Assembly: GCA_951406725.2 (NCBI GenBank)
Contig: OX597819.1
Span: forward strand, 14,012,001 to 14,076,000
DNA length: 64,000 bases
Origin: Octopus vulgaris
Taxonomy: Eukaryota
Direction: 5' to 3'
The notes below the pieces were generated by a model that ran no database searches, was not told where the DNA came from, and saw only the letters and a list, made by a program, of their open reading frames with translations. Of the stretch, positions 17,002 through 60,137 are shown piece after piece. Numbering within the stretch: the stretch's first letter is position 1; each line of letters starts with the position of its first letter. A program made the position numbers and the translations under genes.

Positions 17002-17373
17002 TTTATTTAAAGCAGCAGAAAATTCAACAAGCCATTCATAAAGCATATTACTCTACCACTGGTATTTGAGTACTCTTTTTTTCCACCTTGTTTCACATTT
17101 ATGTGTTTACTCCAACTGAAATGTATGTATATATTAAAAAGCTTTATTCATGCACACACACACATGATTAATCATCTATTTTTGTGGTGAATTTCATATA
17201 GTGCCAAGGTAAGAAAATACTAGTGGTCTATACAGAAAACCTGGGGCTAAAATTCAAACTGAAACTAGTTGAGGAAAACTTCCTTTTTAAGATGTTAAAA
17301 TATAAAAACAATCTCATATGACCAAAAGTTTTTGTGTTGTCAAGCAATCCCCATACTCACATCAAAGGAACGC

Positions 17374-17736
17374 ATGTATGTATGTATGTATGTATATTTA
17401 GAAATGTATGTATGTATGTATGTATGTATACATGTATATTTATAAATGTATGTATGTACACATGTATATGCATATGTGTGTATGTATGTACACATGTATA
17501 TGCATGTGTGTGTATGTATGTGTGTAGATATATGTGTGTGTGTGTGTGCGATGTACGTAAGTATATATATGTAATATGTGTGTATGTATATATATATGTA
17601 TATGCATGTGTGTATATATATATGTATATGCGTGTGTGTGTGTATATATATATGTATATGCATGTGTGTGTGTGTATATATGCATGTGTGTGTGTGTATA
17701 TATGTATATGCATGTGTGTGTATATGTATATGCATG

Positions 17737-17769
<33 letters not shown>

Positions 17770-17981
17770 GAATGTATATGCATGTGTGTATATATATATA
17801 TATATATATGTATATGCATGTATGTGTGTGTATATATGTATATACATGTGTGTGAATATATATATGTATATGCATATGTGTGTATGTATATATATATATA
17901 TACATACACACACACATGCATATATATATATACACATACACACATGCATATACATATATATACACACATGCATATACATAT

Positions 17982-18033
<52 letters not shown>

Positions 18034-18042
18034 GCATGTGTG

Positions 18043-18073
<31 letters not shown>

Positions 18074-18156
18074 GCAATTGTGTGTTTGTGTGTGTATGTA
18101 TATTTATATGTTTATGCATGTGTGTGTATATGTATGTGTGTGTGTATGTATGTATG

Positions 18157-18206
<50 letters not shown>
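17374..18206. repeat. Compound (TA)/(TG)/(TATG)/(TGCA) microsatellite
   Basis: About 830 bp of alternating purine-pyrimidine repeats; accounts for the long YI/HT/CV ORFs. Confidence 0.97.
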
Positions 18207-18208
<2 letters not shown>

Positions 18209-19109
18209 GGCCCATGCACATGCGTACACACACACAACCGCACACACACACATATATCTCGGCACTATGTCAACAGTGCTGCTTATTTTGGGAATCTGTG
18301 CTGAACCCGCCCCCCCCTCTTCCCCTCCCCTCCACAACCACTGGACCACCAAAAGAACAACAACACTTCGTTGTTGTCACAGAAACATTGTAGAATTGTT
18401 CTTTGGAAATTTGTTTGTTATTATATTTGTCTTTTTTGTTTTTTTTTTTGTGTGTGTGGTAGGATGTTGTTGGTATTTCCCTGAAACAATGCCGTTACTG
18501 TTCTTGGCTCAGTCGCGCCGTCATCACCCCCACCACCCCCTCCCCGCCGCCCCGCCCCGCCGCCCCTCCCCTAATTAATAAAAAGCTCATTTGACAGGTT
18601 AAGTATATCAAAAACCATTTCATTTCACCCATCCTGTTCGCCTGTTGCTGCCGCTGGCCACCTCTCATCACCAAAATTCATTTCCTTCATCCGGTTCTAG
18701 TTTGGAGTAAATGCTGTCATCGTCAGCCTTATTTATCATCGCCATCGTCACCATCATCGTTCGCATCATCATCATTATCGTCGTTATCATCGTTGTTGTT
18801 GTCATCGTCGTCGTCCCAGCAAGGAAACCTGTATGTGGTCGTTGCATCTGCTAGAAATAGCTATCATATCTTCTTCAAAACCACATCCTACCGTCGAGTT
18901 TTGAACATCTGGTCTACAGACGAGGCCTTACAGGCGGAATGACGAAGCTAGGAAAAGAATTGTAGAAGGTTGACGTTCTCGAGTAGCAGAGTTTGGCAGA
19001 AAAATGGTTCGTGCGGGGAATGGCGTGGGCGGTGGTGATGGTGGTGGTGGTGGTGGTGGTGGTCGTCGTCGTCGTCTTTGTTGGCGGCGGCAGTAGTGGT
19101 GGTGTGTAA

Positions 19110-25275: not shown

Positions 25276-25526
25276 AAATATGTTTTCTTATCGTTTTTGT
25301 ATCTGGCTAGCATAATGACTTTCCTTAGACCCACCAAATTGTTTTTCTTCTCTTATGTGGAATGCCGCTCTATAAACTGTATTGTCATTGGATACAACTA
25401 AATTTTTTATACTGTATTTATTTGATTTAATTATTCGTGGAAAGCTGGTAGATCATGACAGACTGCAGAAAATCTCTTATATAAAAGGACAAAAGCAACA
25501 CTAACAAGAAAAGAATGGAAGAAGGA

Positions 25527-25865
25527 CAGATAACGGTTTCTGTTTTGGGGTCCTTGACAGATAACGGTTTCTGTTTTAGGGTCCTTGACAGATAACGGTT
25601 TCTGTATTGGGGTCCTTGACAGATAACTGTTTCTGTTTTGGGGTCCTTGACAGATAACGGTTTCTGTTTTGGGGTCCTTGACAGATAACTGTTTCTGTTT
25701 TGAGGTCCTTGACAGATAACTGTTTCTGTTTTGGGGTCCTTGACAGATAACTGTTTCTGTTTTGGGGGTCCTTGACAGATAACTGTTTCTGTTTTGGGGT
25801 CCTTGACAGATAACTGTTTCTGTTTTGGGGTCCTTGACAGATAACTGTTTCTGTTTTGGGGTCCT
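25527..25865. repeat. 31-bp minisatellite, about 11 copies
   Basis: Unit TTGACAGATAACTGTTTCTGTTTTGGGGTCC repeated with no spacers. Confidence 0.95.
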
Positions 25866-26329
25866 TTGTGTGGTCCCCATGTATTGGCAGGACTTTGAAC
25901 TATGACCTCCCTTGGTTGTTGAACTATTATGAATTGGTCTCGCTTTGAGGCCCTCTTCCGCTTCATAACAAGCCCAGTATGTTTCGCTCAATGATGAATA
26001 AACCCCGAGAAAGTAGACTAGTTTTAATTTATGCCAATTAATTCACAATTGAATCAGTGGGTGTAGTGTTAAATGGATTTTCTCTAAAAAGAATCGGCTT
26101 ATATTTGACAACCGAATTCATATAAACTACGCCACCATTTCCCCTATTAAGTTTTCTTTTAGTACAACTCATTTGTCCTGCAGGATTGTTACGTGCATCA
26201 CACACAGCGGTGTTGGCTATCATGCGTCGAGATGAAAGCTTCACAATTGCCTTTCCAATGGTGTTAGTTGTTGCGTTATACTATGTTGCAGCGGTGGACA
26301 CTTCAGCTGTTATTTCAGGAAGGCTCCTA

Positions 26330-43627: not shown

Positions 43628-43900
43628 GTGTTTTTACACCTTTTACCATAAAGAGAATTTCTTCTCCACAGTAACTGCATTGAATTTACCTTTAGGCATT
43701 GAAATATGTCACAAACATGTCTTAACTAATTTAAAGTTCACTTATGCCAGAACTCTGCTTGGTGCTGATACCAACAAATATATATATATATATTATATTA
43801 AATTAGAGACAAAACCACTATTATGCAAATCAAACAAAGAAAGACTTAAGCCAATACATAAAATAATTTATATAAATTTAGAAATTTAACAATTATAAAT

Positions 43901-43961
43901 AACCACTACGATCGTTTCATGTCTTATTTCAGCACATCTTTGAGACATTCTTCAGGTGGTT
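43901..43961 (-). ncRNA. Minimal type I hammerhead ribozyme
   Basis: AACCAC-CTGAAGA-ATGTCT(loop)AGACAT-GAAAC-GATC-GTA-GTGGTT: 6-bp stem I, 6-bp stem II, palindromic short stem III, full core. Confidence 0.85.
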
Positions 43962-44018
43962 TCAAAACCTTCTTGGCGAGTTTTAAACTATGTTTTAAAC
44001 TCGCCAAGAAGGTTTTGA

Positions 44019-44062
44019 AACCACCTGAAGAATGTCTCAAAGATGAAACGATCGTAGTGGTT
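44019..44062 (+). ncRNA. Mirror-copy hammerhead with a 17-nt deletion in stem II
   Basis: AACCAC-CTGAAGA-ATGTCTCAAAGAT-GAAAC-GATC-GTA-GTGGTT; core and stems I and III intact, stem II damaged. Confidence 0.6.
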
Positions 44063-44256
44063 ATTTATAATTGTTAAATTTCTAAATTTATATAAATTAT
44101 TTTATGTATTGGCTTAAGTCTTTCTTTGTTTGATTTGCATAATAGTGGTTTTGTCTCTAATTTAATATAATATAATATAATATTTTACTATAAAATTGGA
44201 TTCAATCCTAAATCTGATTTTTCCCTGTAAATTTGGATTTATTCCCTAATATTTAT

Positions 44257-44289
<33 letters not shown>

Positions 44290-56785: not shown

Positions 56786-57162
56786 GTGTATGTATAACCT
56801 GTCGAGATCTTCCAGTGTAAACTGTTTATTCTTTTATTCGTTTCAGTCATTTGACTGTGTCCAAGCTGGAGCACCGCCTTTGGTCGAGCACATCGACCCC
56901 GGGATTTATTTTTTGTAAGCATAGTACTTATTCTATCGGACCCATTTTGCTGAAGCGCTAAGTTACGAGGACGTAAACACACCAACATCGGTCTTTTATG
57001 CTACGATGGCGGGGACAAATATACACACACGCAAATGCATACATACATACATATATGTGGTTAGAAGCTTGCTTCCCAACCACATGGTCCCTGGTTCAGT
57101 TCCACAGTGTAGTACCTTGGGCAAGTCTCTTCTGCTATAGCCTCTGGCCAACAAAAGCCGTG

Positions 57163-57209
<47 letters not shown>

Positions 57210-57210
<1 letters not shown>

Positions 57211-57554
57211 AGTAGGTGAATTAATTATCCTAGCATGGAAAATTCGTTTAACCGATACCTGGGTAGCAAATTCACGTCAGAAAACACGGTTGAAGCGACC
57301 TGTCAAGGGTAGAAACTCCGGGTTCTTGTGTGGAAATTTGTGTGTTTTTTATATGAATAAGTGAAAGAATGGAGTCGAACGAAGATTTTAACAAAATTCC
57401 TTTACTCTCGACACATGTTTCGAAGACGGCATACTTTTAATTCCGAAGGAATAAAGGGTGCATTATGCCATCTTCTCATCAGGAAAGATAAGGAGCCTCT
57501 TTCAGCCACAATGAATTTTGTTAAAATCTTCGTTTGACTCCATTCTTTCATTTA

Positions 57555-57562
<8 letters not shown>
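57210..57562 (-). mobile_element. (TA)n-embedded element with a hammerhead enclosed by inverted repeats (Penelope pLTR-like)
   Basis: 50-bp inverted arms 57350-57399 and 57513-57562 flank the ribozyme; (TA)n on both sides. Confidence 0.82.
57405..57487 (-). ncRNA. Type I hammerhead ribozyme
   Basis: CTTTC-CTGATGA-GAAGATGGCATA(inner hairpin)TATGCCGTCTTC-GAAAC-ATGT-GTC-GAGAG: canonical core, 12-bp stem II, GUC site, 5-bp stem I. Confidence 0.9.
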
Positions 57563-57596
<34 letters not shown>

Positions 57597-58020
57597 GGGC
57601 TTCCGTCTACCAAGTCCACTCACAAGGCTTTGGTCGGCCTGAGGCTATAGTTGAAGACACTTGCTCAAAGTGCCACGTAGTGAGACTGAGCCCGGAACCG
57701 TGTGGTTGGGAGCAAGCTTCTTACCACACAGCTATTCCTGCGTCTTAGACACTCATAAGCAACAAGATAAGTCGTAGAGAGAGAGAAAGAAGCCGTCTTA
57801 GTGAGGCCAGTATCTTGGCATCATTTTTACGATCGAAATACTACTTTCATATTTTGGCACAAGGCCAGCAGTTTTGAAGGAGAGTGTAAGTCGATTACAC
57901 CGACCCTAGTTCCCAACTGGTACTTAATTCGTCGATCCCGAAAAGATGGAAGACAAAGTCGACCTCGGCGGAATTTGAACTCAGAACGTAGAGGTGTTAC
58001 GTTGGAAATATTAACAGTTA

Positions 58021-58400
58021 GGCGCAGGAGTGGCTGTGTGGTAAGTAGCTTGCTAACCAACCACATGGTTCTGGGTTCAGTCCCACTGCGTGGCATCTTG
58101 GGCAAGTGTCTTCTGCTATAGCCCCGGGCCGACCAATGCCTTGTGAGTGGATTTGGTAGACGGAAACTGAAAGAAGCCTGTCGTATATATGTATGTGTGT
58201 GTGTTTGTGTGTCTGTGTTTGTCCCCCTAGCATTGCTTGACAACCGATGCTGGTGTGTTTACGTCTCCGTCACTTAGCGGTTCGGCAAAAGAGACCGATA
58301 GAATAAGTACTGGGCTTACAAAGAATAAGTCCTGGAGGTCGATTTGCTCGACTAAAGGCGGTGCTCCAGCATGGCCGCAGTAAAAGAAGAGTAAAAGAGT
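58021..58400 (+). mobile_element. SINE family A
   Basis: Consensus match. Confidence 0.9.
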
Positions 58401-58943: not shown

Positions 58944-59312
58944 GCTTCTCTCCTTCCTTGTGTTATGTTTAAACTGTAATCCAGATCTTGTCTCCGTTTC
59001 ATGAGAATCGATCATTTTACTCATACATGCATACACACACACACACACACACATATATACATATTTAGCATTTTTATACAAGCGCACATATACATCATCA
59101 TCATCATCATCATCATTTTCTATGGCACAATGCCCTTCCTGTTGTCAACCCTCACCTATTTCCAACCAATGTAATGTTCCTCGATGGCCAGACATGTTTT
59201 TGCAGCAATTTGAAAATGAACGACACCGTTTGTACGACGGTGGCACTCATTTACGCGATGTCAAGACAAAGAGACACAAACATACACACATTCTCATACA
59301 CATATACAGGTT

Positions 59313-59790
<478 letters not shown>

Positions 59791-59824
59791 CATGAGAGTT
59801 TTATATGTATGTGTTTGTCTGTTA

Positions 59825-60137
59825 GTGGTTACGACAACGAGGGTCCCAGTTGAGCCAATCAACGGAACAGCCTACTCATGAAATTAACGTGCAAGTGACT
59901 GAGCAATCCACAGACACGAGTACCCTTAATGTAGTTCTCTGGGAGATTCAGCGTGACACAAAGTGTGACAAAGCTGGCCCTTTGGAATACAGCTACAACT
60001 CATTTTTGCCAGCTGAGTGGACTGGAACAACGTGAAATAAAGTGTCTTGCTCAACGTCACAACGTATCGCCGGGACTCGAACTCACGACCTTACAATCGT
60101 GAGTCGAATGCCCTAACCACTAAGCCACGCGCCTTCA
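59825..60137 (-). mobile_element. SINE related to family C (different tRNA-like head, type 1 tail)
   Basis: Minus strand GAAGGCGCGTGGCTTAGTGGTTAGGGCA..GAGTTCGAGTCCCGG; 3' half matches CAGGCTGTTCCGTTGAT..CCCTCGTYGTCGTAACC. Confidence 0.8.

What the first reader, a model, noticed from the sequence alone, without database searches (positions are those of the whole stretch)
57210..57562. Canonical hammerhead held in the loop of a 50-bp inverted repeat
Seen: a complete CUGAUGA/GAAAC/GUC hammerhead with 12-bp stem II and an inner hairpin, between inverted arms, inside (TA)n, and unrelated in sequence to the 43.8-kb element. It lies between two oppositely oriented family A SINE fragments whose internal microsatellites provide the TA tracts. 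Inference: a second, independent family with the same layout (TA target, inverted repeat, hammerhead). The family A pol III head at 57596-57742 points toward the ribozyme on the same strand and could transcribe it.
Basis: partly seen in the sequence, partly recalled or inferred. Interest (0 to 1): 0.8.

Follow-up and report, generated by a model that had tools for sequence, protein, structure and literature searches.

The report
Penelope-type stub with long-stem hammerhead
A well-formed hammerhead ribozyme motif sits in one copy of a very abundant repeat, and the 50-base inverted arm around it is most likely a by-product of how Penelope-like jumping genes insert into (TA)n, so this is probably a known kind of remnant whose only unusual trait is a very long helix II.

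Summary
The minus strand carries a type I hammerhead motif: core CUGAUGA/GAAAC/GUC, 12-bp helix II with an inner hairpin, and a palindromic mini helix III. It lies between 50-nt inverted arms in (TA)n; none of 150 simulated windows gave such a motif. Public contigs show an abundant family (3189 contigs laid in one run). The arm is not part of the family unit. Depth across this copy's arm junction is 0.4-12% of the mirror position, other contigs continue upstream with different sequence, and fold-back joints start at seven other places but end at the same TA-rich site. This matches the published insertion product of Penelope-like elements (PLEs): 5'-truncated copy, inverted piece, one-sided tail, (TA)n target. 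Variants in helix II fit pairing (G-C to U-A, U.G to C-G; unphased). The SINE-promoter idea is weak: the flanking head belongs to one SINE split at its microsatellite, its B box is altered, and a T4 run precedes the ribozyme. No link to a PLE reading frame could be made, and cleavage is untested. Unusual points are the long compound helix II and a 140-nt tail. Verdict: new member of a known kind.

The parts
57210..57349 (-). One-sided 140-nt extension ('tail') at the element's 3' end, present on this side only
   Evidence: family sequence with depth in all 4 runs, and pieces reach the (TA)n end (table 8, records 17, 18, 25)
57350..57399 (-). Family sequence downstream of the hammerhead; template of the inverted arm. 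57350 is a TA-rich internal end site
   Evidence: loose ends at 57343-57350 and joints
57405..57409 (-). Helix I, 3' strand
57410..57418 (-). Palindromic mini helix III (57418-57411) and cleavage triplet GUC; predicted cut 57410/57409
   Evidence: 8-bp two-molecule duplex -6.0 kcal/mol; monomer pairing at most 0.04
57417..57421 (-). Core GAAAC
57422..57475 (-). Compound helix II: 12-bp stem, asymmetric internal loop, 9-bp inner hairpin (54 nt in all)
   Evidence: family variants fit the pairing
57476..57482 (-). Core CUGAUGA
57483..57487 (-). Helix I, 5' strand
57488..57511 (-). Family sequence upstream of the hammerhead; this copy is 5'-truncated at 57511
   Evidence: Loose ends behind 57511 in X1 (14), X7 (17), X6 (4) continue with other sequence
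57513..57562 (+). Inverted 50-nt copy of 57350-57399, specific to this copy or a small minority
   Evidence: junction depth 0.4-12% of the mirror position
57523..57526 (-). TTTT run, a possible RNA polymerase III stop ahead of the hammerhead
   Evidence: terminator role from general knowledge, untested
57169..57207 (.). (TA)n target, left part
57558..57593 (.). (TA)n target, right part
57601..57745 (-). Head of the host SINE (family A), B box altered
56850..57056 (-). Body of the same host SINE, split from its head at the microsatellite
   Evidence: query 166-366 of the intact copy at 58020-58400, 81%
57056..57171 (+). Separate SINE head fragment inside the split
   Evidence: 80% to the intact copy

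Best explanation
This is one copy of an abundant hammerhead-bearing repeat inserted in a SINE's (TA)n tract, and it is most likely the 5'-truncated 3' end (pseudo-LTR region) of a Penelope-like retroelement or of a non-coding derivative moved by one, with the inverted arm likely made during insertion. Inferred mechanism: a PLE RT-endonuclease nicks both strands of (TA)n. One 3' end primes reverse transcription at the distal RNA site (57210) and copies the tail, the arm template and the uncleaved hammerhead, stopping at 57511. The other primes at the internal AU-rich site (57350) and copies only 50 nt. The two products are joined head to head, which leaves a hairpin with the tail on one side. 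The hammerhead is predicted to cut only as a dimer or with protein help in the parent's tandem transcript; in this single copy it would be largely idle. Shown: anatomy, abundance, variable fold-back points, shared end sites, variants that fit pairing. Inferred: PLE origin, two-site priming, dimer cleavage.
For:: 3189, 1228, 98 and 121 contigs laid in runs X1, X7, X6, X8. Depth in the junction bin 57512-57524 is 3765, 1177, 7.6 and 72, against 811100, 128826, 487 and 611 in bin 57395-57407 (mirror side). Loose ends behind 57511 in 3 of 4 runs continue with other sequence. Joints into the mirror arm start at 7 other places (57346, 57358, 57382, 57404, 57413, 57425, 57472), all land at 57524-57552 next to the same TA-rich end, and none starts at 57511. 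Both arms carry T at 57387 where 82% of X1 depth reads G, so they came from one template. The mismatch at 57361 is private to this copy (A in over 99% of depth). The 43.8-kb element, unrelated in sequence, has the same build. The structure is described for PLEs in PMC8557442 (inverted 5'-truncated copy, one-sided tail, (TA)n target) and PMC3846280. Two RT start sites that bound the tail, priming on both strands and protein-assisted cleavage were shown in vitro for a lizard PLE in PMC11167929. Palindromic helix III and dimer action: PMC4209133.
Against: No link to an RT/GIY-YIG frame: no genome is held, 0 of 124 window ORFs hit such a Pfam family (124 of 382 candidate ORFs sent), and upstream loose ends are short and disagree (agreement 0.63-0.67). 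The tail is 140 nt against the published 30-40. Helix II is 12 bp plus a hairpin, against 3-7 bp in all 26 Hydra-clade rows of the PMC8557442 table. The joints come from short contigs laid at 80% likeness with short sides of 21-30 letters, which the tool flags as less reliable; tables 3, 4, 7 and 8 were cut. One fold-back joint (57472 to 57550) has depth 490 in X1, so some fold-back stubs may themselves be multi-copy. In X8 the junction depth is about 12% of the mirror.
Confidence: 0.74

Rival explanations
1. The parent is a short non-LTR retrozyme: tandem monomers of 300 nt or more are transcribed, self-cleave as dimers and circularise, and this copy is a solo monomer reverse-transcribed from such an RNA by PLE proteins.
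For: Type I hammerhead with palindromic helix III, no ORF in the unit, high abundance. Depth falls steeply just upstream of helix I, and 5 of the 32 listed pieces end at 57488. Monomers of 51-972 bp and a PLE origin are reported in 10.64898/2026.07.22.740005; circRNAs in mussel in PMC7229834.
Against: None of the 8 joints in table 5 goes back head to tail, and the loose ends behind 57511 do not read like the 57210 end. One copy only in the 64-kb window. A longer monomer is not excluded.
Confidence: 0.14
2. The long arm is an intrinsic, selected part of a subfamily that isolates the hammerhead as a folding domain.
For: The whole insert folds far better than shuffles (z -8.5). The arm lowers the predicted cost of the hammerhead fold from 9.4-10.0 to 4.0-4.6 kcal/mol. 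One other fold-back joint has high depth.
Against: The junction is rare in all 4 runs and fold-back points vary. The two arm mismatches are not compensatory. With the arm, helix I has only 0.08 pairing probability against 0.93 for the isolated motif.
Confidence: 0.05
3. The arm arose after insertion by a DNA-level template switch during replication or repair of an AT-rich, hairpin-prone locus.
For: Both arms share a minority allele, which a local duplication would also give.
Against: Independent copies fold back into the same end site from 7 different points, and an unrelated family at 43.8 kb has the same build.
Confidence: 0.04
4. The SINE head at 57745-57601 transcribes the hammerhead by RNA polymerase III, giving a functional SINE-ribozyme unit like the schistosome hammerhead SINEs.
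For: Same strand and direction; the A box is near consensus. Promoter-plus-hammerhead SINE-like repeats are described in PMC6765202 (passages).
Against: The head is half of a SINE split by the insertion; its B box is the only one of 20 with a change at the third position; TTTT lies 41 nt before the core.
Confidence: 0.03

Closest known systems
EN+ Penelope-like element insertion unit (Craig et al. 2021, PMC8557442 fig. 2; Arkhipova et al. 2013, PMC3846280)
   Same: 5'-truncated copy with an adjoining inverted piece, extension on one side only, hammerhead near the 3' end, microsatellite target without a readable target-site duplication.
   Different: No ORF is left or linked; the tail is 140 nt, not 30-40; the inverted piece stops short of the hammerhead, so only one core is present.
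Hydra-clade PLEs (including Hydra-1_Obim; PMC8557442 files S1 and S2)
   Same: (TA)n preference, CUGANGA/GAAAC core, near-palindromic helix III, position within a few hundred bases of the 3' end; one family is listed with an inverted 5'-truncated copy.
   Different: Helix II is 3-7 bp with loops of 3-10 nt in all 26 rows, here 12 bp plus a 30-nt structured loop; helix III spans 9-10 nt there and 8 here; the Hydra-1_Obim motif is a different sequence (by eye).
Minimal/dimeric type I hammerheads of metazoan PLEs (Cervera and de la Pena 2014, PMC4209133)
   Same: Short helix I (5 bp), G10.1-C11.1, palindromic helix III that needs a partner, mostly solo copies in truncated elements.
   Different: Helix II is longer than the 7-8 bp called 'larger than usual' there, and has no bulged base after the core.
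Non-LTR retrozymes (PMC7229834; bioRxiv 10.64898/2026.07.22.740005)
   Same: Non-coding, type I hammerhead, about 350 nt, low GC, high copy number.
   Different: No tandem arrangement seen here; fold-back structure; circular RNA untested.
Poseidon element of Anolis (Frangieh et al. 2024, PMC11167929)
   Same: Two RT start sites that bound the tail and priming on both target strands would give this build; the hammerhead is dispensable for insertion and cuts only with protein.
   Different: There the start sites are adjacent, inside the ORF and not homologous to the target; here they are 140 nt apart, no ORF is seen, and the inner site has short TA homology to the target.

Membership tests
Hammerhead ribozyme, type I | Conserved core CUGANGA, GAAA, NUH with helices I-III | tested here: met
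   chance 0 of 150. Helix III forms only 2-3 bp in a monomer.
Hammerhead ribozyme, type I | Core kept and helices covary among homologues | tested here: inconclusive
   Among the variants listed (14 weaker rows not shown): none in CUGAUGA, GAAAC or helix I; C17 to U 3-12%; one G-C/U-A swap and one U.G/C-G change in helix II, unphased; the two sides of the swap differ in share (0.49 against 0.80 in X1).
Hammerhead ribozyme, type I | Match to an Rfam hammerhead model | tested here: not met
   no hammerhead family listed.
Hammerhead ribozyme, type I | Self-cleavage at the predicted site | not testable with these tools
   Only contigs were available; table 6 is empty and contigs cannot show RNA ends.
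EN+ Penelope-like element | ORF with PLE-type RT and GIY-YIG endonuclease, in or linked to the element | tested here: inconclusive
   None in this copy or among 124 window ORFs; longer copies could not be fetched. A stub is not expected to hold it.
EN+ Penelope-like element | Variable 5' truncation with an adjoining inverted piece | tested here: met
   This copy and 7 other joint positions (tables 5 and 5c; short sides).
EN+ Penelope-like element | One-sided tail of 30-40 bp | tested here: inconclusive
   A one-sided extension is present but is 140 nt.
EN+ Penelope-like element | Type I hammerhead with short palindromic helix III near the 3' end | tested here: met
   cut site 200 nt from the distal end.
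Hydra/Neptune/Naiad PLE clades | (TA)n insertion preference | tested here: met
   This copy; contigs reach (TA)n at both end sites in all 4 runs (table 2).
Hydra/Neptune/Naiad PLE clades | RT phylogeny and domain order | not testable with these tools
   No protein is linked to the family.
Non-LTR retrozyme | Head-to-tail tandem monomers, each with a hammerhead | tested here: inconclusive
   Single copy in the window; no head-to-tail joint among 8; longer monomers not excluded.
Non-LTR retrozyme | Monomeric linear and circular RNAs | not testable with these tools
   No run on record as RNA and no raw reads.
Pol III SINE with hammerhead | Intact A/B box head joined to the hammerhead as one unit, no terminator between | tested here: not met
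   B box altered, TTTT before the core, head pairs with its own SINE body beyond the insertion.

The most novel reading that the evidence does not exclude
A very abundant, non-coding PLE-mobilised family whose hammerhead keeps a 54-nt compound helix II under pairing selection and has two priming sites 140 nt apart. Such motifs fall outside Rfam and the usual descriptors (core spacer 7-17 nt in PMC8557442), so they would mark a hidden long-helix-II class of PLE hammerheads, with the extra helix acting as the binding site for the RT protein or as a folding aid that allows cleavage.
Probability: 0.2. Interest if true: 0.55.

Novelty: new member of a known kind. Interest (0 to 1): 0.3.

Why it matters
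As a PLE fold-back stub it is ordinary: the layout is in print, and other windows of this scan were read the same way. What it adds is an abundant family that I did not find described in six paper searches and that standard models miss. With many copies, it offers a good covariation and breakpoint set for two open points: what PLE hammerheads do, and how the inverted arm and tail arise. If the long helix II proves to be a protein-binding or activating element, the role of PLE ribozymes would become directly testable.

Tried and rejected
Whole genome: not held. Rfam at gathering score and at E up to 5: no hammerhead; only (TA)n hits to miRNA models. Gapped core pattern: 0 hits in viral contigs; 2 in metagenome contigs, L001 and L002, rejected as chance because they lack helix II and any similarity in the flanks. 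blastn against phages: none. Earlier findings by sequence and by place: none. Expression: no RNA holder listed; X6 and X8 are only guessed to be RNA and are contigs, so their cover says nothing on transcription. Pfam on 124 of 382 candidate ORFs: no RT or GIY-YIG; two weak hits below cut-off. Naiad_Ovul ('HHR_half_core') as the parent: its visible 3' end has the core halves in the other order and does not resemble this sequence by eye; one 16-letter motif was not found in that supplement, though line wrapping can hide a match. The joint '57390 to 57524, opposite strands' was set aside as a mirror artefact of the inverted repeat, and '57287 to 57328' as an internal deletion. Summed depth was not used as a copy number. 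PMC5785218 is not held. The supplement of PMC13282606 was listed but not read; bioRxiv supplements are closed; repeat libraries held elsewhere may already name this family.

Full report
Observation. The minus strand holds a complete type I hammerhead motif: helix I 57487-57483 with 57409-57405, CUGAUGA 57482-57476, helix II 57475-57464 with 57433-57422 (12 of 12 pairs), GAAAC 57421-57417 and GUC 57412-57410. Loop II holds a 9-bp inner hairpin, 7 pairs of which form in this copy. The arms are 57350-57399 and 57513-57562, 50 nt with 2 mismatches, and (TA)n lies on both sides. My scan found no motif with helix I >=5 and helix II >=8 in 150 Markov-simulated windows; at helix II >=6 the mean was 0.007 per window, while the real window has two. 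Rfam lists no hammerhead here. Helix III is a near-palindrome of 8 nt: monomer pairing probability is at most 0.04, and two molecules can form an 8-bp duplex in the productive register at -6.0 kcal/mol, equal to a shifted 6-bp register. This is the dimer type described for animal PLEs and retrozymes (PMC4209133, parts 1-2 of 4 read; PMC6765202, passages).

Setting. The window is animal DNA rich in SINEs and microsatellites; the SINE looks like octopus SINEs, which is recalled and comes from no call. An intact SINE at 58020-58400 aligns with its first 146 bases to 57745-57601 and with bases 166-366 to 57056-56850, both on the minus strand. So one SINE was split at its inner microsatellite, and the gap holds the hammerhead element and a separate plus-strand head fragment (57056-57171). 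The head's B box differs at two positions from the form found in 12 of 20 heads, and it is the only one changed at the third position. A TTTT run at 57526-57523 lies before the core. That polymerase III tends to stop at four or more T is general knowledge. Read-through is therefore unlikely but untested.

Family. No genome is held. Of 24 runs listed, 20 hold the stretch or part of it, from 9 studies and 3 organism labels; none is on record as RNA. I laid 4 of them at 80% likeness: 3189, 1228, 98 and 121 contigs. All 29 bins have depth in all 4 runs. The tool warns that summed depth is no copy number; the contig counts alone show an abundant, diverse family. The junction bin 57512-57524 has depth 3765, 1177, 7.6 and 72, against 811100, 128826, 487 and 611 in bin 57395-57407, which covers its mirror: 0.5%, 0.9%, 1.6% and 12% (0.4% in X1 against bin 57382-57394). 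Loose ends behind 57511 (14, 17 and 4 contigs in X1, X7, X6) go on with other, poorly agreeing sequence (0.63-0.67). Of 8 joints in table 5, 6 lead into the mirror arm; I set aside one as a mirror artefact and one as an internal deletion. With table 5c the fold-back points are 57346, 57358, 57382, 57404, 57413, 57425 and 57472, all landing at 57524-57552 beside the same TA-rich end, and none starts at 57511. These joints have short sides (21-30 letters where given), the tables were cut (14 variant rows, 213 loose ends and 4658 pieces not shown), and one joint has depth 490 in X1, so some stubs may be multi-copy. Both arms have T at 57387 where 82% of X1 depth has G, and G at 57361 is private to this copy. 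The arms thus came from one template and have since drifted.

Conservation. Among the listed variants none falls in CUGAUGA, GAAAC or helix I; C17 to U is seen at 11%, 3%, 11% and 12%. In helix II, 57469 G to U and 57428 C to A would swap G-C for U-A, 57428 C to U gives G.U, and 57470 U to C turns U.G into C-G. In the inner hairpin, 57436 and 57439 repair this copy's two mismatches, and 57455 with 57437 would give C-G. Against a clean reading: the columns are unphased, and partner shares differ (0.49 against 0.80, and 0.21 against 0.08, in X1), so some copies may be mismatched.

Folding. The insert folds at z -8.5, which the arms explain. Helix I has probability 0.93 in the isolated motif, 0.08 with the arm and 0.00 in 57210-57511 without it; the cost of forcing the hammerhead fold is 2.5-3.1, 4.0-4.6 and 9.4-10.0 kcal/mol.

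Mechanism. PMC8557442 (passages; supplement searches and part 2 of 59) describes PLE insertions as 5'-truncated, often with an adjoining inverted copy and a 30-40-bp tail at one end, with (TA)n targets for Naiad and Hydra families. PMC3846280 (passages) describes the same build. PMC11167929 (parts 1-2 of 4) showed for a lizard PLE that both target strands are cut and extended, that two RT start sites bound the tail, that uncleaved RNA is the main template and that the hammerhead cuts only with protein. Applied here by inference: priming at 57210 gave the long product, priming at the AU-rich site 57350 gave the 50-nt product, and the two were joined head to head. The 43.8-kb element has arms over 43776-44185, a one-sided extension of about 70 nt and hammerhead cores with a palindromic helix III on both arms, and shares no sequence with this one. 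Two unrelated families with one build point to a shared insertion mechanism.

What does not fit. No reading frame could be linked. The tail is 140 nt. Helix II exceeds the 3-7 bp of all 26 Hydra-clade rows in the published table; the nearest there is a Selaginella PLE-X motif with 9 bp and a long loop, marked as deviating. The clade cannot be assigned, and membership in PLEs rests on structure, not on a protein. A non-autonomous retrozyme parent remains possible (PMC7229834, passages; 10.64898/2026.07.22.740005, parts 1-3 of 5, where 1 of 9 tested dimers cleaved): 5 of 32 listed pieces end at 57488, just upstream of helix I, but no head-to-tail joint was listed.

In print. Six searches found no description of this family. 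An Octopus vulgaris repeat paper counts 31 recently active Penelope-like families and has no occurrence of 'hammerhead' or 'ribozyme' in its main text (PMC13282606, passages; supplement not read). Repeat libraries may hold it unnamed. Earlier notes of this scan on other genomes reach the same reading for similar objects; they are unchecked and I do not count them as support.

Verdict. The arm is most likely an insertion by-product of a known kind (0.74), and the SINE is a host, not a driver. New member of a known kind, interest 0.3; the long helix II is the one trait worth a bench test.

Noticed in passing
window 43776-44260: Second fold-back insertion in (TA)n with a hammerhead core on each arm (43955 minus, 44025 plus) and a perfect 8-nt palindromic helix III; the plus copy has lost part of helix II. 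Its core and start of helix II resemble the published Hydra-1_Obim motif by eye.
   Followed up: partly
window 57232, loose ends: 13 contigs in X1, 5 in X7 and 1 in X6 have extra bases here that this copy lacks; read on the minus strand they appear to make a second CUGANGA word near the distal end, with no GAAA after it. Possibly chance.
   Followed up: no
window 57472 to 57550, joint: One fold-back junction inside helix II has depth 490 in X1 and 74 in X7, well above single contigs, and is shared by two organism labels: a stub that may have been re-amplified.
   Followed up: no
window 57358 to 57524, joint: Seen in X6 and X8: the forward part ends near 57358 and the inverted part covers sequence beyond it, an inversion without duplication, as two-site priming would give.
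   Followed up: no
window 57056-57171: Plus-strand SINE head fragment nested in the microsatellite of an opposite-strand SINE, next to the hammerhead element; order of events unknown.
   Followed up: partly
window 25431-26042: Minisatellite-like tandem repeat visible as repeating peptides in the ORF list.
   Followed up: no
window 17322-18304 and 59247-59881: Very long (TA)/(TG)-rich microsatellite tracts.
   Followed up: no
PMC8557442 supplement, file S1: Eight Naiad families, two of them from cephalopods, are marked 'HHR_half_core' with core halves 35-50 nt apart; some might be long-helix hammerheads missed by descriptors. Only the Naiad_Ovul end was seen, and it does not look like one.
   Followed up: partly
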